Source of the DNA: an uncultured Rhodospirillaceae bacterium
GTDB taxonomy: Bacteria > Pseudomonadota > Alphaproteobacteria > MPNO01 > UBA830
Length of the DNA: 64,000 bases
Direction of reading: 5' to 3'
NCBI GenBank assembly: GCA_963974055.1
Contig: CAXBCP010000009.1
Coordinates: 74,006 to 138,005 of the forward strand
The notes beneath the pieces are model-generated. The model searched no databases. It saw nothing but the letters and a program-made list of their open reading frames with translations, and was not told the origin of the DNA. Both the position numbers and the translations under genes were made by a program. Shown here piece by piece: positions 1 through 56,868 of the stretch; within the stretch, counting starts at the first letter, position 1; each line of letters starts with the position of its first letter.

Positions 1-1233
1 GCGGCACAGCTCGGGTCCGTCGCGCGCGCCCTTGGGGCATGAAATCACGTTGGCCCGCCCCGCCGCGATCCGCGGACCCGGTTTCGCGGCCGGCCCGAAC
101 GCCTGTGCGGGCGGCACCTCCTCGACAAACGCATTTACCGCCGTCCGAATACCGCGCAGGGCGCCAAGCGCGCCGCCGGAACCCGCAGCCGCGCCGCGGG
201 CGTCTTGGAGGGGAAGGTTGACCAGAACCATCGGCAGGCCGGGAAACGTGTCGTCCCGCGGCGGCGCTGCCGCGATAATGCCGGTCTCCCCGATCATCCG
301 TGCGGCCCCCAGCGTACCGTTTGCCGTGACGACACAGGACACGGCCCCGCCCGCGAGATCCATTGCAACGAAGCCCGCACTGTCGAACGACGCCCCGGAC
401 TCGACCGCCGGCGGCGGCTGCTCGTCGGCCATCGCCCGCCATGCCGCCCGGGCTGCCGTCGCACCCGGGCCCGGCGGCATGTGCATTTCGTCATTACCGA
501 CATTCACGACTTCGGTCGCGAGCCATTTCGGGCGGTAATCCCGGAAGGCGCTGACCGGCACGTCGATCCCGGCCGTCTGCCCGAGCTCCGCCGCGAGCGA
601 TTTCGCAAGATCGCCGGCATAGAATTCGCCGGGGCCGCGGACGCGGATCCCCGCGATCATCGTCGAAAGCGCGGTCTGGCGAAGCATGTCGCCCTCGGCC
701 AGCGGCTTGCCGTCGGGTGCGAAAAGACGGCGCAGGCCGGGATCTGAAAACGCTTCGTCCGGCAGCCCTGCGATCTGGCGGGCAAAGGCGCGCGGCACCG
801 CATTCCCGAACCGCGCCAGGCGTTCCGCCGGCAGGAGCAACGCTTCCCATTTGAGCCGGCCGTACCGGGCATGCATGGCGAACATCCCGCGCACCGATCC
901 GGGAATCATGACGGCCCGGCTGCCGGCGCTGAACAGCGCCGGGCGGAAATCGATGGCCTCGACCTTGTCTCCGCCGCCGGCGTAAACCACGCAATACCCG
1001 CCGCCGCCCAGCGTCGCCGCCCCGGGATAGGTCACCGCGAGGGCAAAATACGTCGCCACGGCCGCGTCGACAGCGGTGCCGCCGGACGACAGGATATCGC
1101 GCCCGACCAGTGCCGAACGCGGCTCGTCCGAGACCACCCCGCCGAAATTCTCCACCAGGTGCCCGACCTGGCCTTCGGGCGGCGCGTCGCTGCCGCAGGC
1201 GGCGCAGATCAATCCTGCGCCGATCGCCGTCAT
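1..1233 (-). CDS. ggt: gamma-glutamyltransferase (GGT) family protein, 5' part only; the gene runs off the window start
   Basis: I translated the minus strand by eye from the ATG at 1233 (the track omits ORFs that run off the window edge, and this one reaches position 1 with no stop). It gives MTAIGAGLICAAC... with the GGT-family stretch GGTAVDAAVATYFALAVTYPGAATLGGGGY. The listed ORFs on both strands here are Arg/Pro-rich GC artefacts. Confidence 0.6.
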   Translation of the reverse strand, partial: MTAIGAGLICAACGSDAPPEGQVGHLVENFGGVVSDEPRSALVGRDILSSGGTAVDAAVATYFALAVTYPGAATLGGGGYCVVYAGGGDKVEAIDFRPALFSAGSRAVMIPGSVRGMFAMHARYGRLKWEALLLPAERLARFGNAVPRAFARQIAGLPDEAFSDPGLRRLFAPDGKPLAEGDMLRQTALSTMIAGIRVRGPGEFYAGDLAKSLAAELGQTAGIDVPVSAFRDYRPKWLATEVVNVGNDEMHMPPGPGATAARAAWRAMADEQPPPAVESGASFDSAGFVAMDLAGGAVSCVVTANGTLGAARMIGETGIIAAAPPRDDTFPGLPMVLVNLPLQDARGAAAGSGGALGALRGIRTAVNAFVEEVPPAQAFGPAAKPGPRIAAGRANVISCPKGARDGPELCR

Positions 1234-3537: not shown

Positions 3538-4272
3538 TCAGGGGAGCTTGGACGCCGCGCCGCGCAGCAGGTCCTCGATCACCTGCCCCATTTCCGACTG
3601 CGACAGTTTGCGGTCGGCATCCGTCCCGCCCCTGATCCGGGCGGATTTAAGACGCATACGCTCCAGCAGGCCGCCCATTCCGTGGGCGGATATCACCGAT
3701 GCATATTCCTGGCGCTTCATCACCATCAGACTGACGCCGTCGACGATCATATCCGTCGCCGTCGCGGTGCATTCGTCGACACTGATACGCCAGCCGACCT
3801 TCACAGCGCCGCCCCGGGCGCCTTTGACAATCGCCGTCACCAGACGGTCGTTCGATTGCAGAAGCCGGTTGTCGACTATCGTATAGGCCGCCGCGCGATA
3901 GCGCAGTATCTGTTCCGTCAGGCCGGGAAATACGGTCTCGCCGAACAGCTTTTCGTATTCGGCGCGCTGTGCTTCCGTGGCGCGTCGCCAGTGAACGCCA
4001 AGGGCATAACGGGAAACGATACCGACGGGCACCTTCGCGCGGATGAAGGCGTCCAGGTTTTCTTCCGCCGCGCCGTCGGCCACCTTCACCGTCGCGCGGT
4101 CGTACAGATCGCGGACGAACGTCTCCGCCATCGCCTGATCGCTCGCCGGGCAGGTACTCGCCAGCGCGCCGACAGGCAGGGCAGCCAGAACCGCCCCGAG
4201 GACCGGGATGAACCGTCCCCTGAGGGCGGCGATCGATTTTCTCATCGGTGCCATCTTAATCTGTATAACCAT
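3538..4272 (-). CDS. MlaC/Ttg2D-like periplasmic lipid-binding protein
   Basis: 244 aa with a signal peptide. The conserved block ...VGIVSRYALGVHWRRATEAQRAEYEKLFGETVFPG... is reminiscent of the toluene-tolerance Ttg2D/MlaC family. Confidence 0.5.
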   Translation of the reverse strand: MVIQIKMAPMRKSIAALRGRFIPVLGAVLAALPVGALASTCPASDQAMAETFVRDLYDRATVKVADGAAEENLDAFIRAKVPVGIVSRYALGVHWRRATEAQRAEYEKLFGETVFPGLTEQILRYRAAAYTIVDNRLLQSNDRLVTAIVKGARGGAVKVGWRISVDECTATATDMIVDGVSLMVMKRQEYASVISAHGMGGLLERMRLKSARIRGGTDADRKLSQSEMGQVIEDLLRGAASKLP

Positions 4273-4582
4273 TCAGAATACTTTTCGTTCCCGACACGCG
4301 GTCGCGGAACGGATTATCATCGGGAAACACCGCGCCATCGCCGCGACGGGTCCCCCGTTACGTCAAATTCTCCGGAAACGCATAAATCTCCCAAATCCTG
4401 CGGATGCCGGACGATAGACGCCGCTCGCCCCCGCCCGCAAAACCTGGAAAAACACGCAACAATCGCCCGACCGAAACGCTTCGGCCCTTGGAACGTTACA
4501 TGGGTCGCTGTGCCAATACAGTCAAGTCTGCAAGTATCCGGAGTATTCGTTAATGCGCCGCAGACGACGCAAAACCGAATAT

Positions 4583-5218
4583 TTAATCCGGCTGTTTCGA
4601 CGGTTGCGCGGAATCGAAGGCATCCAGCTTCATGCATTCGCCGAAAACACGCATCAGCGTCGGATAGGGCGTCAGGTCGCATTCGTAGCGCTGGGCGTTG
4701 AATACCTGGGGCACGATGCAGATATCGACCAGGCCGGGCGCGTCGCCATGACTGAACGTACCGGTTTCGCTATCGCCCGCCAGGCGCGCTTCGAGCGCGT
4801 TGAACCCTTCGTAAATCCAGTGCTGGTACCAGGTGACGTTAACCGCGTCCTTGTCGGCGCCCATTTCCTTCGCAAGGAATTTGAGAATCGCCAGGTTGTT
4901 CAGCGGATGAATATCGCAGGCGATGATATCCGCCAGCCCCCGCACCCGGGCGCGCCCGACCGCGTCCGCCGGCAGAAACGCCGGGTCCGGATGGGTTTCG
5001 TCGAGATATTCGAGAATTGCCATGGACTGGATCAGCGTATTGTCGCCATCGATCAGCGTCGGCACGCGGCCCTGCGGATTGATCTTCGCGTAATCGTCCC
5101 CGAACTGGTCGCCGTCCGGGAGGCTGATATTGATATGCTCCCACGCAATCCCTTTGAGATTGAGCGCGATCCGCACCCGGAAAGCCGCCGACGAGCGTGA
5201 AAAACCGTAAAGCTTCAT
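4583..5218 (-). CDS. maiA: maleylacetoacetate isomerase (zeta-class glutathione S-transferase)
   Basis: 211 aa. The N-terminus MKLYGFSRSSAAFRVRIALNLKGI is typical of MaiA/GSTZ. Confidence 0.75.
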   Translation of the reverse strand: MKLYGFSRSSAAFRVRIALNLKGIAWEHINISLPDGDQFGDDYAKINPQGRVPTLIDGDNTLIQSMAILEYLDETHPDPAFLPADAVGRARVRGLADIIACDIHPLNNLAILKFLAKEMGADKDAVNVTWYQHWIYEGFNALEARLAGDSETGTFSHGDAPGLVDICIVPQVFNAQRYECDLTPYPTLMRVFGECMKLDAFDSAQPSKQPD

Positions 5219-5291
5219 ATCGTTTCCCCTGGATATCCGTGGGCGAGTTTAGGGACTTCGCCGCCCCCGATCCAGCCGGTGACCGCCGGAT

Positions 5292-6455
5292 TCAGATATA
5301 ATATTCGTTGAGCGGCGGAAAGCCGTTGAAACCGATCGACGCATAGGTCGACGTATAGGCGCCCGTGCTGAGCAGTTCGATCTTGTCGCCGCTGTCGAGC
5401 GCGAGCGGCAGCTGGTATTCGGTCTTCTTGTACAGAACGTCCACTTCGTCGCAGGTCGGGCCGGCCAGAACGACGGGCCCGACCGGGCCGCCGTCATGGG
5501 CGGTGGTAATACGGTACTGGATCGCTTCCTCGTATGTTTCGGGGAGACCGCCGAATTTTCCGACATCCAGGAACACCCAGCGCCGGTCCGGCTCCCGGGA
5601 TTTTTCGGCGACCAGTACGACTTCCGACTGGATGATGCCGGCATCCCCGGCAATGCTCCGTCCGGGCTCGGCAATAATGCGCGGCGGGCGGTTGCCGAAA
5701 TGCTTGACGATCGAGGCGCGGATGATTTCGCCGTAATTCTCGACCGGCTCGATATCCTGCAGATACCGGGCGGGGAAGCCGCCGCCCATATTCATCAGTT
5801 CCAGCTCGACGCCGCGGGCGCCGAGCGCGGAAAACACGAAGGCGGCGCGCTCGATGGCGACGTCCCACTGACCGAGGTTGCGCTGCTGCGAGCCGACATG
5901 AAACGACACACCGGCGGGGACCAGCCCGTCCTCGGCGGCCTGGCACAGCAATTCGATAGCCAGATCGGGCTCGCACCCGAATTTCCGCGATAACGGCCAG
6001 TCCGACCCGGCGCCGTCCATGAATATCCGGCAGAACACCCTGGCGCCGGGAGCATTCGCCGCCAGTTTTGCAAGTTCGGCGCGGCTGTCGAAAGCGAACA
6101 GGTCGATCCCGTATTCATGGGCCTTCGCGATATCCCGGGCCTTCTTGATCGTATTGCCATAGGCGATGCGGTCCGGCGACGCGCCGATATCCAGGCAGGT
6201 TTCGATTTCATAGATGCTCGCGGTATCGAAAAACGATCCCATCGGCAGCAGAGTCGTCAGGACTTCTTTTGCCGGATTCGCCTTCACGGCGTAGAAAATA
6301 TCCGCTTGGGGCAAAACCCGCTGAAGGTCCCGGTAATTGTCGGCAATAACGTCGAGATCGACCACGAGACAGGGCGTCTCGGGCCGGCGTTCTTCCAGGA
6401 ATTTGCGAATTTTCTCTGTCATGGCGCGGGGGTTGTAATCCCCTCTTACCGGCAA
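5292..6455 (-). CDS. ornithine/lysine decarboxylase, PLP-dependent fold-type III (Orn/DAP/Arg decarboxylase family 2)
   Basis: 387 aa. It carries the PLP lysine region (FYAVKAN), a glycine-rich GGGF motif and a conserved C-terminal beta-sandwich region. Confidence 0.75.
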   Translation of the reverse strand: MPVRGDYNPRAMTEKIRKFLEERRPETPCLVVDLDVIADNYRDLQRVLPQADIFYAVKANPAKEVLTTLLPMGSFFDTASIYEIETCLDIGASPDRIAYGNTIKKARDIAKAHEYGIDLFAFDSRAELAKLAANAPGARVFCRIFMDGAGSDWPLSRKFGCEPDLAIELLCQAAEDGLVPAGVSFHVGSQQRNLGQWDVAIERAAFVFSALGARGVELELMNMGGGFPARYLQDIEPVENYGEIIRASIVKHFGNRPPRIIAEPGRSIAGDAGIIQSEVVLVAEKSREPDRRWVFLDVGKFGGLPETYEEAIQYRITTAHDGGPVGPVVLAGPTCDEVDVLYKKTEYQLPLALDSGDKIELLSTGAYTSTYASIGFNGFPPLNEYYI

Positions 6456-6472
6456 CGCAAAGGGTATTTACG

Positions 6473-6913
6473 CTACTTGAATCCGCCTTCCATAAACTGG
6501 AGCCCGAACATGGCGCCGCCGGCCAGCGCACCCAGCATCACCATGATCAGAACAAGGCGCACCGGGCTGGATTTTTTCTTGATTTTGCGCTTTTGGGCGA
6601 CCTTTCTGCGCTGCACGGTATCGGCTTGGCGCTTCTTGCGCGCCTGTCCGGCATTCTGGCGCACGTTCTTCGACTTGCGCAATTGCTCGGCATTTTCCGC
6701 GGCAACCTTGCTGCCCCGGTAGATCGTGCGGGTCTTGGTTTCCTGCGTCGCCTCGACATAGACCTCCTCGACGACCCGAATACCGGAATAGCGCCCGCTT
6801 TCGTCCATGCGCTGGGCTTCGAACATCGCCAGGTCCCTGTCATCGAAGACAGAATCGATCTTCCATTTTCCACTTTGGTAAGTGTGGATTTCGAATGCTT
6901 TCATATCTGACAT
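6473..6913 (-). CDS. hypothetical basic protein with C-terminal transmembrane helix
   Basis: 146 aa with normal, non-artefactual composition and a Lys/Arg-rich middle region followed by a hydrophobic C-terminus. It lies immediately upstream of the decarboxylase on the same strand. Confidence 0.4.
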   Translation of the reverse strand: MSDMKAFEIHTYQSGKWKIDSVFDDRDLAMFEAQRMDESGRYSGIRVVEEVYVEATQETKTRTIYRGSKVAAENAEQLRKSKNVRQNAGQARKKRQADTVQRRKVAQKRKIKKKSSPVRLVLIMVMLGALAGGAMFGLQFMEGGFK

Positions 6914-13947: not shown

Positions 13948-14781
13948 ATGACTGACTTCGAAGACATCCCCTATCGCACGATCGACGGCCACACGCTGGA
14001 GGCGCGGCTCTACCGGCCCGCCGGCAGCGGCCCCGACATTAGCCCCGACAGCGGCCCGGCGCGCTGGGTCGTGGACGTTCACGGCGGCGCCTGGGGCTCC
14101 GGCGACAGGCTCAACAACCAGGTCATCCACGAAGACCTCGCAGCCCACGGTATCGGCGTCTTCGCGCTCGATTTCCGCCTGTCGGACACGGCGCAGTATC
14201 CGGCTATGGTCGACGACGTCAGCTACGGCATCCGCTGGTTCAAGGCCAATGCCGCTGCCCTCGGCGTGAATGCCGCGACCATCGGCGGGCTCGGCTCGTC
14301 GAGCGGCGCGCAGCAACTGGGGCTGGTCGCGCTGTGTCCCGCCAACCCGCGCTGGACGACGCCGGATGCCGCCCTCGGCGACGCCGATGCGAGCATCGAT
14401 TTCTTCGTCGCCGGCTGGCCGATCCTCGATCCGCTGGCGCGCTACCGCATGGTGCGCGACGCCGGCAACGAGCGCCTGGTCGCCGCCCACGATGCCTGTT
14501 TCGCGACCGAGGCCGACATGGCGGAGGGCAACCCCTGCGCGCTGCTCGACCGCGGCGAGGCCACCCACCTGCCGCCAATGATCGTCATCCAGGGCACGGC
14601 GGACGCCAATGTCGAACACACCTGGCAGGACCGCTTCGCCGATCTCTACCGCGCCAAGGGCGGCACGGTGGAGATGCACAAATACGACGGCCAGCCCCAC
14701 ACCTTCGTGACCGCCGACCCGACCTCGGCGGCATCCCTGGATGCGATTGTGAAGATCCGGGAATTCGTCCTCGCGGTCTGA
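13948..14781 (+). CDS. alpha/beta hydrolase (esterase/lipase-type)
   Basis: 277 aa with an HGGAW oxyanion motif and the nucleophile elbow GLGSSSG. Confidence 0.65.
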   Translation: MTDFEDIPYRTIDGHTLEARLYRPAGSGPDISPDSGPARWVVDVHGGAWGSGDRLNNQVIHEDLAAHGIGVFALDFRLSDTAQYPAMVDDVSYGIRWFKANAAALGVNAATIGGLGSSSGAQQLGLVALCPANPRWTTPDAALGDADASIDFFVAGWPILDPLARYRMVRDAGNERLVAAHDACFATEADMAEGNPCALLDRGEATHLPPMIVIQGTADANVEHTWQDRFADLYRAKGGTVEMHKYDGQPHTFVTADPTSAASLDAIVKIREFVLAV

Positions 14782-14829
14782 TCTTCTGTCGGCGCCGGGG
14801 GAATCGCTTCCCCGGCCCGCCACCAAACC

Positions 14830-15085
14830 AAAACCCGTAAAACAACCCCATGCACCCGAAGGGAAGGGATGGCATTGACGGGAGATCCCCGCCGCCGCGG
14901 GGATGACCACCGCCCCGGCCCGCCGGTCCGGTGCCGCGAAACGCAAACCCGCAATTCAACCCCATGCACCCGAAGGGAAGGGACGGCAGTGGCGGGCCGC
15001 GTCCCTGCCCGGGCGGGACCGCCGCCCCGGCCCGCCGCAAATCGCAAACCCGCAATTCAACCCCATACACCCGAAGCTCCGGAAT
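14830..15085. repeat. tandem direct repeat, unit of about 105-115 bp in roughly 2.3 copies
   Basis: The unit runs aaacccgcaattcaaccccatgcacccgaagggaaggga...gccccggcccgcc...cgcaaacccgcaattc. It appears from about 14830, about 14944 and about 15045 (the last copy partial), and each unit contains an internal GC hairpin. Confidence 0.7.
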
Positions 15086-15584
15086 ACCCTTCACGGAAAA
15101 CGGAACCCCGCCGCACGGAACCCTTTCGCCAACCGGCCGCGCCGACTGACGCCGGGATATCGCCCGGAAGCCGCCGGGATGCCGGCGCGATGCCGCCCGA
15201 ATTGCGATTAATTATCTGTCGTAGCGCCTCTCCCCTGTCGTGATCGTCCGGCCTGCCGATACCGGAACGCAACCCGACAGGGAGTGTAACACAAAAAGAA
15301 CAAATAACGAACATATATGACTGAGCTGATTCAGCTTGAAATTTATCAGGATTGAAAGATCAGCGCCCAACCGGCCACCGCCTCTCTAACTAGGTTGTCG
15401 ACCTTCCAATCAGATTCCACTCATAAACGGGGGAATGACGGGGACAAGGTCAAAAACAATGCCACCACCGAGTTTCTCATCAACGGAGTTCAACTAGAAA
15501 AATCGATCAAACGGGTTAGAGCCAAGTTAAAATTTTTGATCAGCTGACAATTTTAATAGCCCTTCCTAAACTAGGTCACTCGCG

Positions 15585-15599
15585 ACCAACTTAAAGTTG
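15585..15599. promoter_or_regulatory. perfect palindrome ccaacttaaagttgg in the AT-rich leader about 70 bp upstream of the NLR-like gene (candidate operator)
   Basis: ccaactt / aagttgg are inverted. Upstream direct motifs ctaactaggt (15386-15395) and ctaaactaggt (15567-15577) are also present. Confidence 0.3.
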
Positions 15600-15671
15600 G
15601 CTGTTCCGTATCTTGCAATCACAAGAACAATCATTCAACTTTGTGGAGAAAATTCACTTTAGGCGAAGAAC

Positions 15672-18557
15672 ATGCCCCTCGTTGAAACATTGGTTTTATC
15701 TCTTGGAGCATCTTTATCAAAGGCTGCCATAAAACTCTGGATGTCAGATTCCGGATTAGCAATCGACGCATCTTCTGCTTTAGTCGACACGTTCAAAAAG
15801 CATCTGCCTGATGAACTTTCTAGGCGAAGGGCCAATCGACTTTACGAACAGATTGCTGAACAAACGGCGGAAAAAATTGAGCCACTATTTCGACAAGAAT
15901 TCGGTCGGCTCGAAGATGATCGCAAAGAACGCGTCGCCCTAGCTGTTGCAAAGACAATCGATGACGCTGGTGCTTCGGCTGAAATTCTCGCTCAGTTGGA
16001 TTTCGACCCGGTAAAACTCGAGACATACTTTAACAAGTTCAATTCGACTGCAGAATTTTCGCTTACGGCAACGCAATCCGTTTTCTACGAACGAATTCTC
16101 AGAGAATCTTGTTTCTACATTATCGAGATTGCTAACAATTTGCCGACGTTAAAAACGGCAATAGCGTCAGAAATTCTTAAACGCCAAACCGAAATACTAG
16201 AGAAAATCGAAAAGATTCTAAAAAATATACCGGAGAGTATATTTGACTCATCAAAAGACAGTGACGTCGAAGGCTTCGAGAACTTATATCGACGGACGAT
16301 TTCATCGAAGTTAGATGAAATCGAGCTACACGGATTGAGCTTACGGTCAGTGAACCCACGATACAGTTTATCTGTCGCATACATCAGCCTCATGATGTCC
16401 CTCGGGGGGAAACTTGCTCAAAATGAAGAGACCATCAACCGCGTACCCGTCGGAAAAGCATTCGCGGGAGGGAAACGATTCCTAATTTTTGGAGAGCCCG
16501 GTTCCGGGAAGACAACTCTGTTAAAATGGATTGCAGTTCAGACAGCAAAATTGAATTTTGAAAACGAACTCGCTGAATGGAATAACTGTTTTCCATTTTT
16601 CGTCCGATTACGCCGTTATTCTGTAGGTGAATTTCCAGTTGGCGCAAAATTAGTAACGCATTTGGCGCCGACATTGGAAGGTCATCTACCCCATCAGTGG
16701 GTAGAAAAAAAATTAAATTCCGGACAAGCAATTCTGTTAGTCGACGGCCTTGATGAACTACCAGAAAACAAAAGGAATTCGGCAAGGAAATGGCTTAAGG
16801 AACTGGCCGAAGTTTACGCAAACGCGACAATAATTGTCACATCTCGCCCGCCCGCTGTACCGCGCACCTGGCTAGACTCTGTAAATTTCGATGTGCGGGA
16901 AATTCAACCAATGAACTCGCACGAGATCACAACGTTCATTAATTATTGGCACACTGCCGAAAAGGAAGCAATTAATGATCCAGTCATTGTAGAAAGGATC
17001 GATCGAGCCGGAAAGACGTTGAAGAACGAAATTTCCAATAATGACGAACTGCGAAATTTGTGCACTACGCCATTATTAGGCGCAATGATATGCGCGCTCT
17101 ATTTGGAAAGAAAGGAGCACCTACCGGCAGATAGGTTGGACCTTTACTCTATGACACTCGATTCAATCTTAGAGGGGCGAGATAACGAAAGAGACATCCC
17201 TCAAATTTACGAATTTGATCTGACTAAGCGGGAAAAAGAGTACCTGCTTATGAGCATCGCACAATGGTTTCTTCTGAATGGAAAAGTCGATGCCTCTATC
17301 AACGACGTCAAACTCCACCTTGAATCTGTAGCTTCTCGTTTTGGAGATGGTGATCTAACGGCAGACCAACTCCTAAACTTCCTATTAGAACGAAGTGGCG
17401 TTCTTCGCACGCCAGCCGTTGGAAGCTTAGATTTCATTCACAAGACATTTCAAGAGTATCTTGGAGCAAAAGCTATTGTCACCGACAACAATATTGGATT
17501 GTTAGTCCTATCTGCGCACGTCCCCGAATGGCGTGAAGTCGTGGTTCTCGCGGCAGGCCTCTCCAACAACCCACAATTAACCGAACTAATTGATGGGATA
17601 TTAGATCGATCTGAAAAATCATCAGATATCGAAAGTAATATTTTAAAAATTGTGGCTGTAGCCTGCAAAGGTACCGTAGCAATATGGCCTCCCGGGGTAG
17701 CAGATCGACTAGACACCGTTTTTGCCGAGCTCTTCCCGCCTCGTGATATATGGGCTGCAAGAAGCATTGCAAAAGCCGGCCCACAGGCACTCGACTACCT
17801 ATCAGGCTACCAAGACGAAGAAGACGCTATTGCCGCAGCTTGTATCCATGCAATCATCTCAATTGGCGGGAAAAAAGCACTCGAAACCCTAGAAGCATAC
17901 GGGTCCAATTCTGGAGCGCTTGCCGCTACAGAACTATTGCAAGGTTGGGACTATTTTGACCAGCTCCAGTACGCAAAGTTAATATTGAAAAAAAACAACG
18001 CCCGTTTTGGAATAAACTGGAATGACAGAAATAATTTGGAAGGAATTCAATATTTAAAGAATCTGCATTCTTTTGAACTATCCGATTCATGGAAGATTCG
18101 AAGTATCAATAATCTAAAGAACGCCAAAAAACTAAAACACTTAGTACTAAAGAATTGCAACTCGCTCGATTCAATATCAGCCCTTAAAAATCTTTCCGAA
18201 TTAAGACACCTGACCATCGAGAATTCACCTGACATCAAATCCATCAAAGCAATAGAATCTCTGATCCACCTAAAAGAATTATACTTAGATGGCTGCTCTA
18301 GAATATCAAATTTATTACCAATATCAAATTTAACTCAATTACAAATCCTGCACCTAAACGGTCTATATAATCTCACCGATCTTGATTTTATCAGTAAACT
18401 CAAAAGCCTCGAACAACTAGATTTAACAGGTTGCTATGGAATAACAGATTTAATACCGTTAGCCCGACTCCCCAATCTCACAACCGTCTATCTCCCAGAA
18501 TTAAATTACGACCAAAATTTGCCGAGTGAATTTATTGAACGGGTAGAAATTTTATAG
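15672..18557 (+). CDS. NLR-like STAND NTPase with an unknown helical N-terminal domain, NACHT, HEAT-like repeats and C-terminal leucine-rich repeats
   Basis: 961 aa. The NACHT domain shows Walker A GEPGSGKTTLLKWIA (aa 275-289), Walker B AILLVDGLDELP (aa 353-364), sensor-1 IIVTSRP and the NLR-type winged-helix motif DFIHKTFQEYLGAKAI. HEAT/PBS-like repeats span roughly aa 690-750. Eight or more LRRs follow (LKNLHSFELSDS..., LKHLVLKNCNSLDSISALKNLSELRHLTI..., LKELYLDGCSRISNL...). The N-terminal ~265 aa are all-helical with no recognisable motif. The gene is low-GC. Confidence 0.8.
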   Translation: MPLVETLVLSLGASLSKAAIKLWMSDSGLAIDASSALVDTFKKHLPDELSRRRANRLYEQIAEQTAEKIEPLFRQEFGRLEDDRKERVALAVAKTIDDAGASAEILAQLDFDPVKLETYFNKFNSTAEFSLTATQSVFYERILRESCFYIIEIANNLPTLKTAIASEILKRQTEILEKIEKILKNIPESIFDSSKDSDVEGFENLYRRTISSKLDEIELHGLSLRSVNPRYSLSVAYISLMMSLGGKLAQNEETINRVPVGKAFAGGKRFLIFGEPGSGKTTLLKWIAVQTAKLNFENELAEWNNCFPFFVRLRRYSVGEFPVGAKLVTHLAPTLEGHLPHQWVEKKLNSGQAILLVDGLDELPENKRNSARKWLKELAEVYANATIIVTSRPPAVPRTWLDSVNFDVREIQPMNSHEITTFINYWHTAEKEAINDPVIVERIDRAGKTLKNEISNNDELRNLCTTPLLGAMICALYLERKEHLPADRLDLYSMTLDSILEGRDNERDIPQIYEFDLTKREKEYLLMSIAQWFLLNGKVDASINDVKLHLESVASRFGDGDLTADQLLNFLLERSGVLRTPAVGSLDFIHKTFQEYLGAKAIVTDNNIGLLVLSAHVPEWREVVVLAAGLSNNPQLTELIDGILDRSEKSSDIESNILKIVAVACKGTVAIWPPGVADRLDTVFAELFPPRDIWAARSIAKAGPQALDYLSGYQDEEDAIAAACIHAIISIGGKKALETLEAYGSNSGALAATELLQGWDYFDQLQYAKLILKKNNARFGINWNDRNNLEGIQYLKNLHSFELSDSWKIRSINNLKNAKKLKHLVLKNCNSLDSISALKNLSELRHLTIENSPDIKSIKAIESLIHLKELYLDGCSRISNLLPISNLTQLQILHLNGLYNLTDLDFISKLKSLEQLDLTGCYGITDLIPLARLPNLTTVYLPELNYDQNLPSEFIERVEIL

Positions 18558-18595
18558 TTTGCGGATATTAATTCATCACATAATGCTTCCAGAGC

Positions 18596-18632
18596 GCGAA
18601 AAAAGGGCTTAGCGAAAACCGACTAAGCCCTT
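18596..18632 (+). terminator. rho-independent terminator of the NLR-like gene
   Basis: Hairpin gggcttag-N10-ctaagccc followed by ttgcaattgttgg. Confidence 0.5.
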
Positions 18633-18768
18633 GCAATTGTTGGTTGCGGGGGCACGATTTAAACCTGCGGCCTTCAGGTTATGAGCGTGATTGTCAATAA
18701 TCCTGCGCAATCCCATAAACTTCCAAAAAAAAACGACCATGAAAATCCGGGTATCCGCGCCGGGATAC

Positions 18769-18849
18769 CCCCCACAAAAAAACCCGGCACAGGGCCGGGT
18801 TTCTTTTCGTCGGGAACGAGCGGAGGGTTATTCCACGAATTCCTCGACC
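18769..18849. repeat. direct repeat A: partial duplicate of the clpA 3' end plus its terminator
   Basis: 81 bp, nearly identical to 19710-19790 with 4 mismatches confined to the spacer between stop codon and hairpin. It includes the aaacccggcacagggccgggttt hairpin and the last about 21 nt of the clpA reading frame, but here it is not attached to any gene. Confidence 0.8.
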
Positions 18850-18943
18850 TTGACGGGACATCGATCTGGCGCGCCGGCTCTGTAAGTTCGTCTTTCAGAA
18901 CCTCGCCGGGATGAGCTAGCTGTTTCAACAGCTGCGCCGTGCC

Positions 18944-19255
18944 TCAAACCGGGTCCGGAACGAACGGCTTCACATCGACCTGATCGGCCTTATCGCGCAT
19001 GGTTGATGCGTCATACCAGGCCTGCATACGCAGCAGCGTATCCATGGACAGACCGAAGGCCTTTTCGAGCCGCAGGGCCATTTCCGGCGTCAGGCCCGCT
19101 TTCTCGTTCAGCAGGTCCGACACCGTTGCGCGGCGCACCCCGAGAATCCCGGCCGCGCGGCTGATGCTCAACCCCAGTTCTTCAATCACTTCTTCGCGGA
19201 TGAATTCACCCGGATGGCCGGGCTTCATCCCGACTTTGATTCCCTCGTTTTCCAT
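18944..19255 (-). CDS. higA: HigA family antitoxin (XRE-type HTH)
   Basis: The start at MENEGIKVGMKPGHPGEFIREEV is internal to listed ORF 18944..19345. It has an HTH (LSISRAAGILGVRRATVSDLLNEKAGLTPEMALRL). Its ATG overlaps the higB stop (TGATG). Confidence 0.8.
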   Translation of the reverse strand: MENEGIKVGMKPGHPGEFIREEVIEELGLSISRAAGILGVRRATVSDLLNEKAGLTPEMALRLEKAFGLSMDTLLRMQAWYDASTMRDKADQVDVKPFVPDPV

Positions 19256-19539
19256 CAGTGGTAATCCTCCAAATTCAGATGCTCCACGCTCACGCCATCG
19301 ATCTCGAAGGTGATGCGCCAATTGCCCGATGCACTGATGCTCCACGTCCCTGCCCGGTCGCCCGTCAGCTGATGAATGCGCCAGCCGGGGGGACCTTCTA
19401 CGCCCGCCATATTCTCGGCGGCGATCAGGGCTGTCAGAATTCGCCGCACCCGCCCGACCAGATCGCGACTGATTTCGCGGTCGTCATCATCTTCGATGAG
19501 GCGCCTTAGCCCCCTGTGGTCAATCGAACCAATCTGCAC
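19255..19539 (-). CDS. higB: HigB toxin (RelE/ParE superfamily, 'plasmid maintenance system killer')
   Basis: 94 aa with ...RLHQLTGDRAGTWSISASGNWRITFEIDG...EHLNLEDYH, typical of HigB. The toxin-first gene order matches higBA. Confidence 0.8.
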   Translation of the reverse strand: MQIGSIDHRGLRRLIEDDDDREISRDLVGRVRRILTALIAAENMAGVEGPPGWRIHQLTGDRAGTWSISASGNWRITFEIDGVSVEHLNLEDYH

Positions 19540-19709: not shown

Positions 19710-19790
19710 CCCCCACAAAAAAACCCGGCACAGGGCCGGGTTTCTTTTCGTCGGGTACGGGCGGCGGGTTATTCCACGAATTCCTCGACC
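19710..19790. repeat. direct repeat B: the authentic clpA 3' end (last codons and stop) plus the bidirectional terminator hairpin
   Basis: This is the partner of 18769-18849. The hairpin cccggc-acagg-gccggg is flanked by an A-run and a T-run. Confidence 0.8.
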
Positions 19791-22120
19791 CTGTCGCCGT
19801 CGCCGTCGGGGCCGTCGTCGTCGTCATCCGTGTCCGGATCCTTCGACTTGCCTTTCGGCGGCGCCGCGAGGGTGACGAGGGTGAGGGTGTCGTCGGCCTT
19901 TTTGACGTCGACCTGGACCACGCCGCCCTTGGCGAGCTTGCCGAACAGGATCTCGTCGGCCAGCGGCTTCTTGAGATGTTCCTGGATGACCCGCGACAGC
20001 GGCCGCGCGCCGTAGGCGATGTCGTAGCCCTTGCGGCACAGCCAGTCGCGGGCCGCGTCGGTCAGCTCGAAGGTCACGTTGCGGTCTTCGAGCTGGGCTT
20101 CGAGCTGCATGATGAACTTGTCGACGACCAGCAGCACCACTTCCTGCGGCAGGCTGGCGAACGGGATGATCGAATCCAGCCGGTTGCGGAATTCCGGGGT
20201 GAACATGCGCTTGATCGCCTCCTCGTCCTCGCCCGTGCGTTCGGCGCGTTCGAACCCGATGGCCGGCTTGGCCATCTCGGCGGCGCCCGCATTGGTGGTC
20301 ATGATCAGGATCACGTTGCGGAAATCGACGCTCTTGCCGTTATGGTCGGTCAGCCTGCCGTGATCCATGATCTGCAGCAGGATGTTGAACACGTCCGGAT
20401 GGGCCTTTTCGATCTCGTCGAGCAGCAGCACCGAATGGGGATGCTGGTCGACCGCGTCGGTCAGCAGGCCGCCCTGGTCGAAGCCGACATAGCCCGGCGG
20501 CGCGCCGATCAGGCGGGACACCGAATGGCGTTCCATGTATTCCGACATGTCGAACCGCGTCAGCTCGACGCCGAGCGTGTGGGCGAGCTGGCGCGCGACC
20601 TCGGTCTTGCCGACGCCGGTCGGGCCGGAGAACAGGTAGCTGCCGATCGGCTTGTCGGGTTCGCGCAGGCCGGCACGCGCCAGCTTGATCGCCGATGCCA
20701 GGGCGTCGATGGCGCTGTCCTGGCCGAACACCACGCGTTTCAGGTCGGCATCCAGCGTCTGCATCGATTCCTTGTCGGAACGCGACACGCTTTTCGGGGG
20801 GATGCGCGCGATCTTGGCGACCACGGCCTCGACGTCCTTGACCGTGATCAGCTTCTTGCGCCGGCTTTCCGGCACCAGCATCTGGGCGGCGCCGACTTCG
20901 TCGATCACGTCGATCGCCTTGTCGGGCAGCTTGCGGTCGTTGATGTACTTGGCGGCCAGTTCCACGGCCGTGCGCAGCGCGGCGGCGGTGTAGCGCACCC
21001 GGTGATGCTTTTCGTAATAGGGTTTCAGCCCGCGCAGGATTTTCACCGTGTCCTCGACGCTCGGCTCCGGCACGTCGATCTTCTGGAACCGGCGTACCAG
21101 CGCGCGGTCCTTTTCGAAATACGACCGGTATTCCTTGTAGGTGGTCGAGCCGATGCATTTCAGCGTGCCGCCCTGGAGGGCCGGTTTCAGCAGGTTGGAC
21201 GCATCCATCGAGCCGCCGCTGGTCGCGCCGGCGCCGATGACGGTGTGGATTTCGTCGATGAACAGGACCGCGTCGTCATGCTGTTCGAGCTCGGACACGA
21301 CCGCTTTCAGGCGTTCCTCGAAATCGCCGCGATAGCGGGTCCCGGCGAGCAGCGCGCCCATGTCGAGCGAGAAGATGGTCGCGCCCTTGAGCACCTCCGG
21401 CACGTCGCCGTCGTGAATGCGCTTGGCCAGCCCTTCGGCGATGGCGGTCTTGCCGACGCCGGAATCGCCGACATAGAGCGGGTTGTTCTTGGTGCGGCGG
21501 CACAGCACCTGGATGGTGCGCTCGATCTCGGCGTCGCGGCCGATCAGCGGATCGATTTTGCCGTCGGCGGCTTTCTGGTTGAGATTGACGCAATAGGTGT
21601 CGAGCGCCTCGCCGGCGCTCTTGCCGTCCTCCTCGTCGCCCCCTTCTTCGTCGGTGCCGCGGACCGAGCGGTTTTCCGACCGGCCGGGGACCTTGGCGAT
21701 GCCGTGGCTGATATAGTTCACGGCGTCGAAACGGGACATGTCCTGTTCCTGGAGATAGTACACCGCGTGGCTTTCGCGCTCGGAGAACATGGCCACCAGC
21801 ACGTTCGCGCCGGTGACTTCCTGGCGCCCGGAGGACTGGACGTGAATGGCCGCCCGCTGCACGACGCGCTGGAAGCTCGCGGTCGGTTTCGGGTCTTCCT
21901 CGTCCTCGACCACCAGGTTGGACAGGTCCTCGTCGAGATAGCCTTTCAGGTCGTCCGAAAGCTTCTCGATATCGACGCCGCAGGCCTTGAGCACGGCGAT
22001 CGCGTCCTGGTCCTCGGTCAATGCCATCAGCAGATGTTCGAGCGTGGCATATTCGTGGTGACGGTCGTTCGCCTGCGACAAGGCGCGGTGCAGGCTTTTT
22101 TCAAGATTGCGTGAAAGCAT
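19769..22120 (-). CDS. clpA: ATP-dependent Clp protease ATP-binding subunit ClpA
   Basis: The start at [14 protein letters not shown] is internal to listed ORF 19769..22174. It has two AAA+ modules ([15 protein letters not shown] and [15 protein letters not shown]). Confidence 0.9.
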
Positions 22121-56793: not shown

Positions 56794-56868
56794 GGGCGCG
56801 TAGCTCAGCGGGAGAGCACTCGCCTCACACGCGAGGGGTCGCTGGTTCAATCCCAGCCGCGCCCACCA
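56794..56868 (+). tRNA. tRNA-Val (anticodon CAC)
   Basis: GGGCGCGTAGCTCAGCGGGAGAGCACTCGCCTCACACGCGAGGGGTCGCTGGTTCAATCCCAGCCGCGCCCACCA. The 7-bp acceptor stem GGGCGCG/CGCGCCC pairs, the D-loop AGCTCAGCGGGAGAGC and the T-loop GGTTCAATCC are present, and the anticodon loop is CUCACAC. The 3' CCA is encoded. Confidence 0.85.

What the first reader, a model, noticed from the sequence alone, without database searches (positions are those of the whole stretch)
15672..16480. Uncharacterised all-helical N-terminal domain of the NLR-like protein: candidate novel effector or signalling module
In bacterial STAND/NLR defence proteins the N-terminal domain is normally the effector (nuclease, protease, TIR, pore-forming helices and so on). 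Here, residues 1-265 lack any nuclease, TIR, peptidase or HNH signature I can see. They are predicted helical with an amphipathic hydrophobic start (MPLVETLVLSLGASLSKAAIKLW), compatible with a membrane-disrupting or oligomerising death-fold-like effector.
Basis: inference. Interest (0 to 1): 0.6.

Follow-up and report, generated by a model that had tools for sequence, protein, structure and literature searches.

The report
Known NNH1 domain of bacterial NLR
The N-terminal helical region of this bacterial NLR-like protein is a member of an already catalogued domain family (NNH1, Pfam PF22733), and what that family does biochemically is still untested.

Summary
The ORF is real: 15672-18557 (+), 961 aa, in a 44% GC island within a ~64% GC genome. 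Its N-terminus has no nuclease, TIR or peptidase signature. It is not an unnamed domain, however. [quoted passage not shown] The family is large: 1,219 representatives at 50% identity. The domain sits at the extreme N-terminus in nearly all of the 150 best hits. The swappable helical module is ~1-195. Residues ~196-265 are a beta-containing extension of the NACHT module, and related NACHT proteins with other or no N-termini also have it.

An AF2 model (pLDDT 85) found no fold match in the PDB or in viral models. No conserved partner gene exists. Helix 1 is Met1-anchored and hydrophobic on all faces, not amphipathic. It has a conserved central Gly12 and Trp23. This design resembles Bell/HeLo-type "killer helix" modules, but homology could not be shown.

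Verdict: a new member of a known kind. An effector role is plausible but unproven. Membrane disruption is only an analogy.

The parts
15672..18557 (+). Complete gene for a 961-aa bacterial NLR-related protein (NNH1 + NACHT + LRR), a relative of bNACHT16 in clade 4
   Evidence: ORF. Pfam NNH1 9-183, NACHT 271-429 and LRRs ~790-943. 33% identity, E=1e-66, collinear from residue 1 with the first 399 aa of bNACHT16. An identical protein is present on TARA ocean metagenome scaffolds.
15672..16256 (+). NNH1 helical module proper (aa 1-195): about 8 helices in the effector-slot position
   Evidence: PF22733 E=2.9e-36 over profile positions 2-176 of 177. AF2 helices at 3-27, 37-44, 48-76, 82-99, 113-123, 133-156, 162-185 and 189-194, with pLDDT mostly 80-96. 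The helN HMM separates from the preNBD HMM. 1,219 relatives at E<=1e-3.
15672..15752 (+). Helix alpha1 (aa 1-27): Met1-anchored, hydrophobic on all faces, with conserved G12, K17, K21, W23 and D26
   Evidence: G12 in 132/150 and W23 in 146/150 sequences. The Met1-to-W23 distance is 22 residues in 96/150. It is the most hydrophobic segment of the domain in 118/150. Family mean <H> is 0.29 and mean muH is 0.20. Pairwise identity is 38% against 30% for the rest of NNH1. pLDDT is 91-95.
16257..16480 (+). Pre-P-loop extension of the NACHT module (aa ~196-270): helix 198-214 plus beta strands, with motif F202-E..Y206-R-R..L-D215..E-L-F-G221..R-Y-x-L-S-V-A-Y-I-x-L240. It is not part of the swappable N-domain.
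   Evidence: Strands at 216-218, 230-232, 241-243 and 257-259. Near-invariant columns F202, Y206, D215, G221, L233, A236, Y237 and L240. The preNBD HMM hits relatives without the helical module: P0184 (HTH), P0162, P0161, P0172, P0194, P0199 and P0202. Kibby Table S1 shows short 'NNH1' remnants between enzymatic effectors and NACHT.
16491..16514 (+). Walker A P-loop GEPGSGKT (aa 274-281), the start of the Pfam NACHT match
   Evidence: G274, G277, G279, K280 and T282 invariant or near-invariant.

Best explanation
Residues 1-~195 are an NNH1 domain. NNH1 is the non-enzymatic N-terminal output module of a single-gene bacterial NLR of the bNACHT clade 4 type (NNH1-NACHT-LRR).

Proposed sequence of events:
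1. The LRR sensor detects a phage-derived or infection-derived cue. This step is inferred.
2. The NACHT module exchanges nucleotide and oligomerises. This is inferred from intact Walker A/B motifs and the invariant WHD His590, and from bNACHT16 genetics.
3. The clustered NNH1 domains cause growth arrest or death of the infected cell (abortive infection). This step is also inferred.

The most likely way NNH1 does this is by releasing its Met1-anchored hydrophobic helix alpha1 (central Gly12, Lys17/21 stripe, Trp23) from a sheath of amphipathic helices. The released helix would then perturb the inner membrane. This is the design principle of Bell/HeLo/CC-type modules and of the MDPIT extension of bNACHT11. 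This sub-step is an analogy only.

Residues ~196-265 are not part of this module. They are the N-terminal extension of the NACHT nucleotide-binding domain.
For: - Family membership: PF22733 at 122-126 bits against a 27-bit cutoff.
- The protein is collinear with bNACHT16, annotated NNH1 8..238 + NACHT + Imm-LRR.
- 43 of 43 sampled full-length relatives are NNH1+NACHT, and 31 of 43 have detectable LRRs.
- Effector-slot argument: the same NACHT clade carries TIR, Trypsin, PNP_UDP, calcineurin-like, cyclase or HTH domains in place of NNH1.
- Intrinsic toxic output: bNACHT16 alleles mimicking NLRC4 H443L/P and S445P inhibit E. coli growth, and the protein has no other effector domain.
- Single-gene system: no conserved neighbour across the window, L004-L006 and 15 genome loci. 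Kibby Table S2 gives an operon size of 1.
- Helix alpha1 is anchored at Met1, is the most hydrophobic segment and among the most conserved, has a low hydrophobic moment, and is followed by amphipathic helices.
- Precedents for N-terminal killer helices in bacterial defence: Bab G11K abolishes Abi; bNACHT11 D2A/P3A and N-terminal additions abolish defence; and activation causes plasmolysis.
- The protein looks functional: invariant G274/K280, D358/D361/E362, R392 and H590.
Against: - No experiment addresses NNH1 itself in any paper I could search.
- Wild-type bNACHT16 has an empty 'Phage Defense' field in Table S2.
- Toxicity of hyperactive alleles does not localise the toxic activity to NNH1.
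- A full NNH1 coexists with other effectors in some proteins: C-terminal CHAT in P0105 and EACC1 in an Actinoplanes protein. In those proteins NNH1 may not be the effector.
- No fold or sequence link to Bab, HET-S, MLKL or ZAR1: Foldseek against the PDB gave best E~1 and TM<0.2, and profile searches found nothing.
- The MEPIS/MDPIT motif is absent here (MPLVETL). Only 6 of 150 family members start M[DE]P.
- A PSSM of alpha1 against clade-14 N-termini gave z=0.2-2.0.
- Alpha1 is no more hydrophobic than buried segments of the NACHT region.
Confidence: 0.55

Rival explanations
1. NNH1 is an adaptor or scaffold. When clustered by NACHT oligomerisation, it recruits or activates a separate protein that does the killing, such as a host factor or a caspase-like protease. 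This would resemble CARD/EAD-type adaptors.
For: - Kibby et al. class non-catalytic N-domains as possible adaptors.
- P0105 carries NNH1 together with a C-terminal CHAT protease.
- An Actinoplanes homologue (L021) has a caspase-like gene 23 nt upstream on the same strand.
- NNH1+NACHT+EACC1 architectures exist.
- NNH1 has no conserved His, Cys or Ser and no catalytic motif.
Against: - There is no conserved neighbour gene in 19 loci.
- All of the 150 best relatives are NACHT fusions or short fragments. No free-standing NNH1-effector fusion of the kind that homotypic adaptors usually show was seen.
- bNACHT16 alleles are toxic in a heterologous host, E. coli, so any partner would have to be broadly conserved.
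- No match to CARD, Death or EAD families.
Confidence: 0.2
2. NNH1 is mainly a regulatory or autoinhibitory cap on the NACHT module, comparable in role to FISNA or other pre-NBD helical regions. The output comes from the NACHT-LRR oligomer itself or from another part of the protein.
For: - The C-terminal part of Kibby's NNH1 annotation persists as a short remnant next to NACHT even when an enzymatic effector is present.
- NACHT+LRR relatives with no N-domain exist, for example P0162 and bNACHT44/45.
- NNH1 coexists with CHAT or EACC1.
- Conservation is intermediate: 31% pairwise identity, against 44% for NACHT and 23% for LRR.
Against: - The retained remnant maps to aa ~137-245, not to helices alpha1-alpha5. 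The preNBD element separates cleanly from the helical module.
- A regulatory cap would not need a strictly Met1-anchored, highly conserved hydrophobic helix.
- In clade 14, a short N-terminal extension in the same position proved to be the effector.
Confidence: 0.15
3. NNH1 is a cryptic all-helical enzyme, for example a hydrolase that uses the conserved E/D/R/K/Y residues.
For: Several conserved charged or aromatic positions are present: K17, K21, D26, D39, R52, R56, E76, E145, Y149, E167 and R171, plus the LPxF...ExLxR motif.
Against: - No match to any enzymatic Pfam, NCBIfam or PADLOC family, even at lenient thresholds across 22 members.
- No conserved His, Cys or Ser.
- No structural match to any enzyme.
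- The conserved charges are equally well explained by salt bridges that hold the helix sheath together.
Confidence: 0.05

Closest known systems
bNACHT16 of Vibrio campbellii CAIM 519 (WP_005534681; Kibby et al. 2022 bioRxiv 10.1101/2022.07.19.500537 / Cell 2023), NACHT clade 4
   Same: The architecture is identical (NNH1 + NACHT + Imm-LRR) and the length is similar (950 aa against 961 aa). Identity is 33% (E=1e-66), collinear from residue 1 through the NBD. Both are single-gene loci.
   Different: Only the first 399 aa of bNACHT16 were available for comparison. Helix alpha1 of bNACHT16 is divergent and lacks the family's G12 and W23. The host and context differ: this one is in a marine high-GC bacterium, in a low-GC island next to higBA and clpA.
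[quoted passage not shown]
   Same: Full-length profile match (positions 2-176 of 177) far above the gathering cutoff, located directly N-terminal to a NACHT domain.
   Different: The Pfam model ends at aa 183.
Bell / Babybell (Bab, PDB 9H9V), fungal HeLo/Hell, plant CC(HeLo) and MLKL 4HB membrane-targeting modules; the MDPIT/MEPIS N-terminal extension of bNACHT11 and other clade-14 bNACHTs and of Avast2
   Same: Both have a Met1-anchored hydrophobic helix 1 with a central glycine (Bab G11; G12 here). In both, helix 1 is the best conserved element and is followed by other helices, which cup it in the Bab crystal structure. Both sit in the effector position of an NLR or are coupled to one.
   Different: NNH1 is about 195 aa, against 45-100 aa. 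It lacks the MEPIS/MDPIT motif. No sequence or fold similarity was detectable. No membrane phenotype is known for any NNH1 protein.
Death-fold domains (CARD/PYD/DD) of animal NLRs and bacterial CARD-like domains
   Same: They occupy the N-terminal position in an NLR, are all-helical, and have no catalytic residues.
   Different: Death folds are six-helix bundles of about 90 aa. No Pfam or Foldseek match was found.

Membership tests
NNH1 (Pfam PF22733) | Significant match to the family HMM above the curated cutoff | tested here: met
   122.4 bits for the full protein and 125.6 bits for aa 1-265, against a cutoff of 27. Profile positions 2-176 of 177 are covered.
NNH1 (Pfam PF22733) | Located immediately N-terminal to a NACHT NTPase module | tested here: met
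   NNH1 at 9-183 and NACHT at 271-429. The same holds in 43 of 43 sampled relatives.
NNH1 (Pfam PF22733) | All-alpha-helical structure | tested here: met
   The AF2 model at pLDDT 84.7 has only helices from 3 to 214.
bNACHT clade 4 NLR-related proteins (Kibby et al.) | Tripartite architecture: N-terminal domain, central NACHT with intact Walker A/B, and C-terminal Imm-LRR-type repeats | tested here: met
   Invariant G274/K280 and D358/D361/E362. 33% identity with clade-4 member bNACHT16.
bNACHT clade 4 NLR-related proteins (Kibby et al.) | Placement in clade 4 by NACHT phylogeny | not tested
   No tree was built. Placement is inferred from best similarity to bNACHT16 and from shared architecture.
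bNACHT clade 4 NLR-related proteins (Kibby et al.) | Anti-phage activity or abortive infection | not testable with these tools
   This needs an experiment. The 'Phage Defense' field for wild-type bNACHT16 is empty in Table S2. Hyperactive alleles are toxic.
Bell/HeLo/Hell/CC(HeLo)/4HB membrane-targeting superfamily | Met1-anchored hydrophobic helix 1, the best conserved element, sheathed by other helices | tested here: inconclusive
   Anchoring, conservation and all-round hydrophobicity are met. Alpha1 is no more hydrophobic than NACHT core segments.
Bell/HeLo/Hell/CC(HeLo)/4HB membrane-targeting superfamily | MEPIS/MDPIT-like N-terminal motif or detectable sequence/fold similarity to a member | tested here: not met
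   The N-terminus is MPLVETL. Only 6 of 150 relatives start M[DE]P. Profile searches against the PDB found nothing. Foldseek gave no hit at E<=1e-3. The PSSM against clade-14 N-termini gave z=0.2-2.0, though that test is underpowered.
Bell/HeLo/Hell/CC(HeLo)/4HB membrane-targeting superfamily | Membrane relocalisation or permeabilisation on activation | not testable with these tools
   An experiment is required.
Death-fold (CARD/PYD/DD/DED) | Six-helix bundle of about 90 aa recognisable by profile or fold | tested here: not met
   No Pfam hit, no PDB profile hit and no Foldseek hit. The domain is about 195 aa with about 8 helices.
Integral membrane / TM effector | A segment reaching transmembrane hydrophobicity (KD19 >= 1.6) | tested here: not met
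   The query maximum is 1.31, at residues 2-20. 21% of family members reach 1.6.

The most novel reading that the evidence does not exclude
NNH1 may be a large, highly diverged member or convergent analogue of the HeLo/Hell/Bell/CC "killer-helix" modules. On activation, the NNH1-NACHT-LRR oligomer would release the Met1-anchored, Gly12-centred helix alpha1 with its Lys stripe, and this helix would perturb or line a pore in the inner membrane. That would make this widespread family (>1,200 clusters at 50% identity) the closest bacterial architectural counterpart of plant CC-NLR resistosomes, sharing the LRR sensor and helical executioner but built on a NACHT NTPase rather than NB-ARC.
Probability: 0.25. 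Interest if true: 0.7.

Novelty: new member of a known kind. Interest (0 to 1): 0.3.

Why it matters
NNH1-NACHT-LRR proteins are a large, phylogenetically broad family. They are the bacterial NLRs most similar in layout to animal and plant NLRs, yet their output mechanism is unknown. This window adds one more intact member and no new kind of system.

Two points from this analysis could help the people who study the family:
1. The boundary. The swappable module is aa 1-195, and a pre-P-loop element belonging to NACHT follows it.
2. The family-wide signature of helix alpha1: Met1-anchored, G12, K17/K21, W23, hydrophobic on all faces. This gives specific mutants to test against the Bell/MDPIT "killer-helix" model.

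Tried and rejected
- Single-sequence AF2 of aa 1-265 gave pLDDT 38 and was unusable.
- The first MSA submission was too large.
- Foldseek against the PDB and the BFVD viral models gave no hit at E<=1e-3.
- The word-indexed homologue search with the N-domain, alone or as a profile, returned only 1-3 hits. The exhaustive phmmer search was needed instead.
- PDB sequence searches with the domain profile and the alpha1 profile found nothing relevant.
- A lenient Pfam scan across 22 members found no recurrent second family.
- tblastn of aa 1-195 against the plasmid and phage collections found no match.
A 5-sequence alignment worked, but its search pattern lay in the pre-NBD motif, so it could not reveal NNH1 outside NACHT proteins.
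- The PSSM test of alpha1 against MDPIT-type N-termini was not significant. It was also underpowered, since the true member bNACHT16 scored only z=1.6.
- The Cell version of Kibby et al. (PMC10294775) is not held.
- Rejected ideas: death-fold, TM protein, HEPN/HD-type helical enzyme (no conserved His), and plant MADA motif. The MADA motif was compared by eye from memory only and showed no similarity beyond the initial Met-Ala.
Full report
**Observation.** The window contains an ORF at 15672-18557 (+) of 961 aa that starts MPLVETLVLSLGASLSKAAIKLW. It lies in a stretch of about 44% GC within a genome of about 64% GC. Pfam finds NACHT at 271-429 and LRRs at about 790-943. It finds no nuclease, TIR, peptidase or HNH domain. 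[quoted passage not shown] NCBIfam and PADLOC add only weak NACHT-level or LRR-level hits.

**Where the family comes from.** NNH1 was defined by Kibby et al. (bioRxiv 10.1101/2022.07.19.500537; Cell 2023) in their census of bacterial NACHT proteins.
- Their Table S1 annotates bNACHT16 of Vibrio campbellii (WP_005534681, 950 aa) as NNH1(8..238)+NACHT(252..721)+Imm-LRR(763..934), clade 4.
- The window protein aligns with the available first 399 aa of bNACHT16 at 33% identity, E=1e-66, collinear from residue 1.
- In that paper, bNACHT16 alleles mimicking the NLRC4 gain-of-function mutations H443L/P and S445P inhibit E. coli growth.
- Table S2 lists the gene as a one-gene operon and leaves its 'Phage Defense' field empty.
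- I found no paper that tests NNH1 itself.

**Size and architecture of the family.** An exhaustive phmmer search of aa 1-265 against 1.84 billion cluster representatives gave 1,219 hits at E<=1e-3 and 796 at E<=1e-10. In the 150 best hits the match is at the extreme N-terminus (residues 1 to about 243) of proteins mostly 900-1,280 aa long. Of 43 sampled full-length relatives, all 43 have NNH1+NACHT, 31 have detectable LRRs, and one (P0105) also has a C-terminal CHAT protease. An identical protein occurs on TARA ocean metagenome scaffolds with the same neighbours: higA/higB, clpA and clpS.

**Domain boundary.**
- A confident AF2 model of aa 1-300 (93-sequence MSA, pLDDT 84.7, pTM 0.83) is helical from 3 to 214. 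It then forms beta strands at 216-218, 230-232, 241-243 and 257-259 before the P-loop.
- I split the family alignment into a helical HMM (aa 1-195) and a pre-NBD HMM (aa 196-245). The pre-NBD element (F202-E..Y206-R-R..L-D215..E-L-F-G221..R-Y-x-L-S-V-A-Y-I-x-L240) is present in close NACHT relatives that lack the helical module. These include P0184 (HTH 16-74, pre-NBD 98-144, NACHT, LRR) and P0162, P0161, P0172, P0194, P0199 and P0202.
- Kibby's Table S1 shows the same pattern. In clade 4 the N-terminus is Calcineurin-like, ACYC, Trypsin, TIR, PNP_UDP_1, HTH or a full NNH1. Several enzyme-bearing proteins keep a 43-105-aa 'NNH1' remnant directly before NACHT.
- The swappable effector-slot module is therefore aa 1 to about 195. 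Residues ~196-265 belong to the NACHT module.

**What the module looks like.** The most striking feature is the N-terminus, with consensus M-x-L-x-E-T-L-x-x-x-L-G-x-A-x-A-K-x-x-L-K-x-W-L-K-D.
- G12 is present in 132/150 sequences, K17 in 118, K21 in 108, W23 in 146 and D26 in 116.
- The Met1-to-W23 distance is exactly 22 residues in 96/150 and 18-24 in nearly all.
- Helix alpha1 is the most hydrophobic segment of the domain in 118/150 members. It is more conserved than the rest of NNH1: 38% against 30% pairwise identity, compared with 44% for NACHT and 23% for LRR.
- It is not amphipathic. Its family mean hydrophobic moment is 0.20, the lowest of the helices, and its mean hydrophobicity is the highest. 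Helices alpha3, alpha5 and alpha7 are clearly amphipathic, with muH 0.38-0.46.
- It is not a predicted TM helix (KD19 1.31). It is no more hydrophobic than buried segments of the NACHT region.
- Other conserved positions are R52, R56, E76, E145, Y149, L157-P158-x-F160, E167, L169 and R171. No His, Cys or Ser is conserved, so no obvious catalytic motif is present.

**Fold and remote homology.**
- Foldseek of the model against the PDB gave no hit at E<=1e-3. The best had E~1 and TM<0.2, and all were generic helical proteins. The viral BFVD models gave the same result.
- Profile searches of the domain and of alpha1 alone against all PDB sequences found nothing relevant. In particular they found no Bab, HET-S, MLKL or ZAR1.
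- A lenient Pfam scan over 22 members showed no recurrent second family.

**Genomic context.** The window, three metagenome or genome loci (L004-L006) and 15 species genomes (L007-L021) were compared. They include Ktedonobacteria, Micromonospora, Chloroflexota, Solirubrobacterales and Verrucomicrobia. No neighbour gene is conserved except among three closely related Ktedonobacter species. Some contexts look like defence or mobile regions, with TIR proteins, FGE-sulfatase, IS elements, a type III restriction-like helicase and a Dam-like methylase. One Actinoplanes homologue has a caspase-like gene 23 nt upstream. The family thus behaves as a single-gene system.

**Mechanism.** Three points argue that NNH1 is the output module. 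It occupies the effector slot. The family is single-gene. Hyperactive alleles of an NNH1-NACHT-LRR protein are toxic in a heterologous host.

How it acts is unknown. Recent work provides a relevant precedent.
- Ibarlosa et al. (10.1101/2024.11.07.622273) describe Bell/Babybell, HeLo/Hell, CC(HeLo) and MLKL 4HB as a superfamily of membrane-targeting modules. Their common denominator is a Met1-anchored hydrophobic helix 1, the best conserved element, cupped by variable helices. In Bab, G11K at the centre of helix 1 abolishes abortive infection.
- The bNACHT11 study (10.1101/2024.12.17.629029) shows that a 45-aa N-terminal MDPIT extension is required for plasmolysis-type cell death after heptamerisation. 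N-terminal additions abolish function.

NNH1 shares this design: Met1 anchoring, a central Gly12, the highest hydrophobicity with the lowest moment, and amphipathic helices after it. It lacks the MEPIS/MDPIT motif, since it starts MPLVETL and only 6 of 150 relatives start M[DE]P. A PSSM of alpha1 scored clade-14 N-termini at z=0.2-2.0. That test is underpowered, because the true member bNACHT16 scored only z=1.6. The membrane-perturbing killer-helix model is therefore my preferred sub-mechanism, but it is only an analogy.

The rivals are as follows:
- An adaptor that recruits a protease or host factor. This is supported by the CHAT and EACC1 fusions and the caspase neighbour. It is weakened by the lack of conserved partners.
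- A regulatory cap on NACHT. This is supported by the retained remnants and by NACHT-LRR relatives without an N-domain. It is weakened by the Met1-anchored conserved helix.
- A cryptic enzyme, which has little support.

**Verdict.** This is a new member of a known kind, the NNH1 domain of a bNACHT clade-4 NLR. It is not a novel domain. The open question is what NNH1 does. That question is real, but it was already implicit in the 2022/2023 description. Interest is 0.3. The most novel reading still open is that NNH1 is a diverged HeLo/Bell-type executioner, which would make these proteins bacterial resistosome-like NLRs. I give that reading a probability of about 0.25.

Noticed in passing
window 18769-18855 and 19710-19796: An 87-nt direct repeat (94% identical) flanks the higBA cassette (18944-19539, minus strand). 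The right copy contains the last ~28 nt of clpA (its ORF ends at 19769) plus its hairpin/T-run terminator. The toxin-antitoxin module therefore looks inserted between clpA and its terminator, with duplication of the target.
   Followed up: partly
window ~15250-18770: The NLR gene lies in a low-GC stretch (about 44% against about 64% in the flanks), between an alpha/beta-hydrolase-like gene (13948-14781) and the duplicated clpA 3' end. This looks like a horizontally acquired island. There is no tRNA nearby; the only tRNA in the window is tRNA-Val at 56794.
   Followed up: partly
window 14792-15096: Three GC-rich direct repeats of ~90 nt (66-72% identity, start-to-start spacing 101-114 nt) sit just upstream of the island. 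They share the core CAAACCCGCAATTCAACCCCATGCACCCGAAGGGAAGGGA. The TARA scaffold carrying the identical gene ends 651 nt upstream of the start codon, near these repeats.
   Followed up: no
L021 1867-3555 (Actinoplanes sp. NPDC051861), upstream of the NNH1-NACHT-LRR homologue at 3578-6505: A 562-aa caspase-like protein (HFSCHG...DCCYGG motifs, Pro-rich linker, probable TM segment) is encoded 23 nt upstream on the same strand. Separately, relative P0105 carries a C-terminal CHAT domain (1079-1236). Some NNH1 NLRs are linked to caspase-like proteases.
   Followed up: partly
PDB 9yfd_A residues 484-498 against the family alpha1 consensus (window aa 15-29): Defense-associated reverse transcriptase 1 contains IAKKLLKTWLKDPSI, a near-perfect match to the NNH1 alpha1 consensus iAKaiLKlWLkDsei. 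It is internal to that protein, not N-terminal, and is not significant (E=0.33), so it is probably chance.
   Followed up: no
window 17439 region (aa H590) and aa 358-362: The WHD histidine H590 (FIHKTFQEYL) and Walker B residues D358, D361 and E362 are invariant in 43 relatives. By inference, H590 corresponds to the NLRC4 H443-equivalent position whose mutation hyperactivates bNACHT16, which gives a ready-made gain-of-function allele.
   Followed up: no
L006 2347-4715 (GCA_028285265.1), upstream of the NNH1 NLR P0169: Two TIR-domain genes (one fused to pentapeptide repeats), an FGE-sulfatase gene and an IS110 transposase surround this homologue. This is a defence-island-like context.
   Followed up: no
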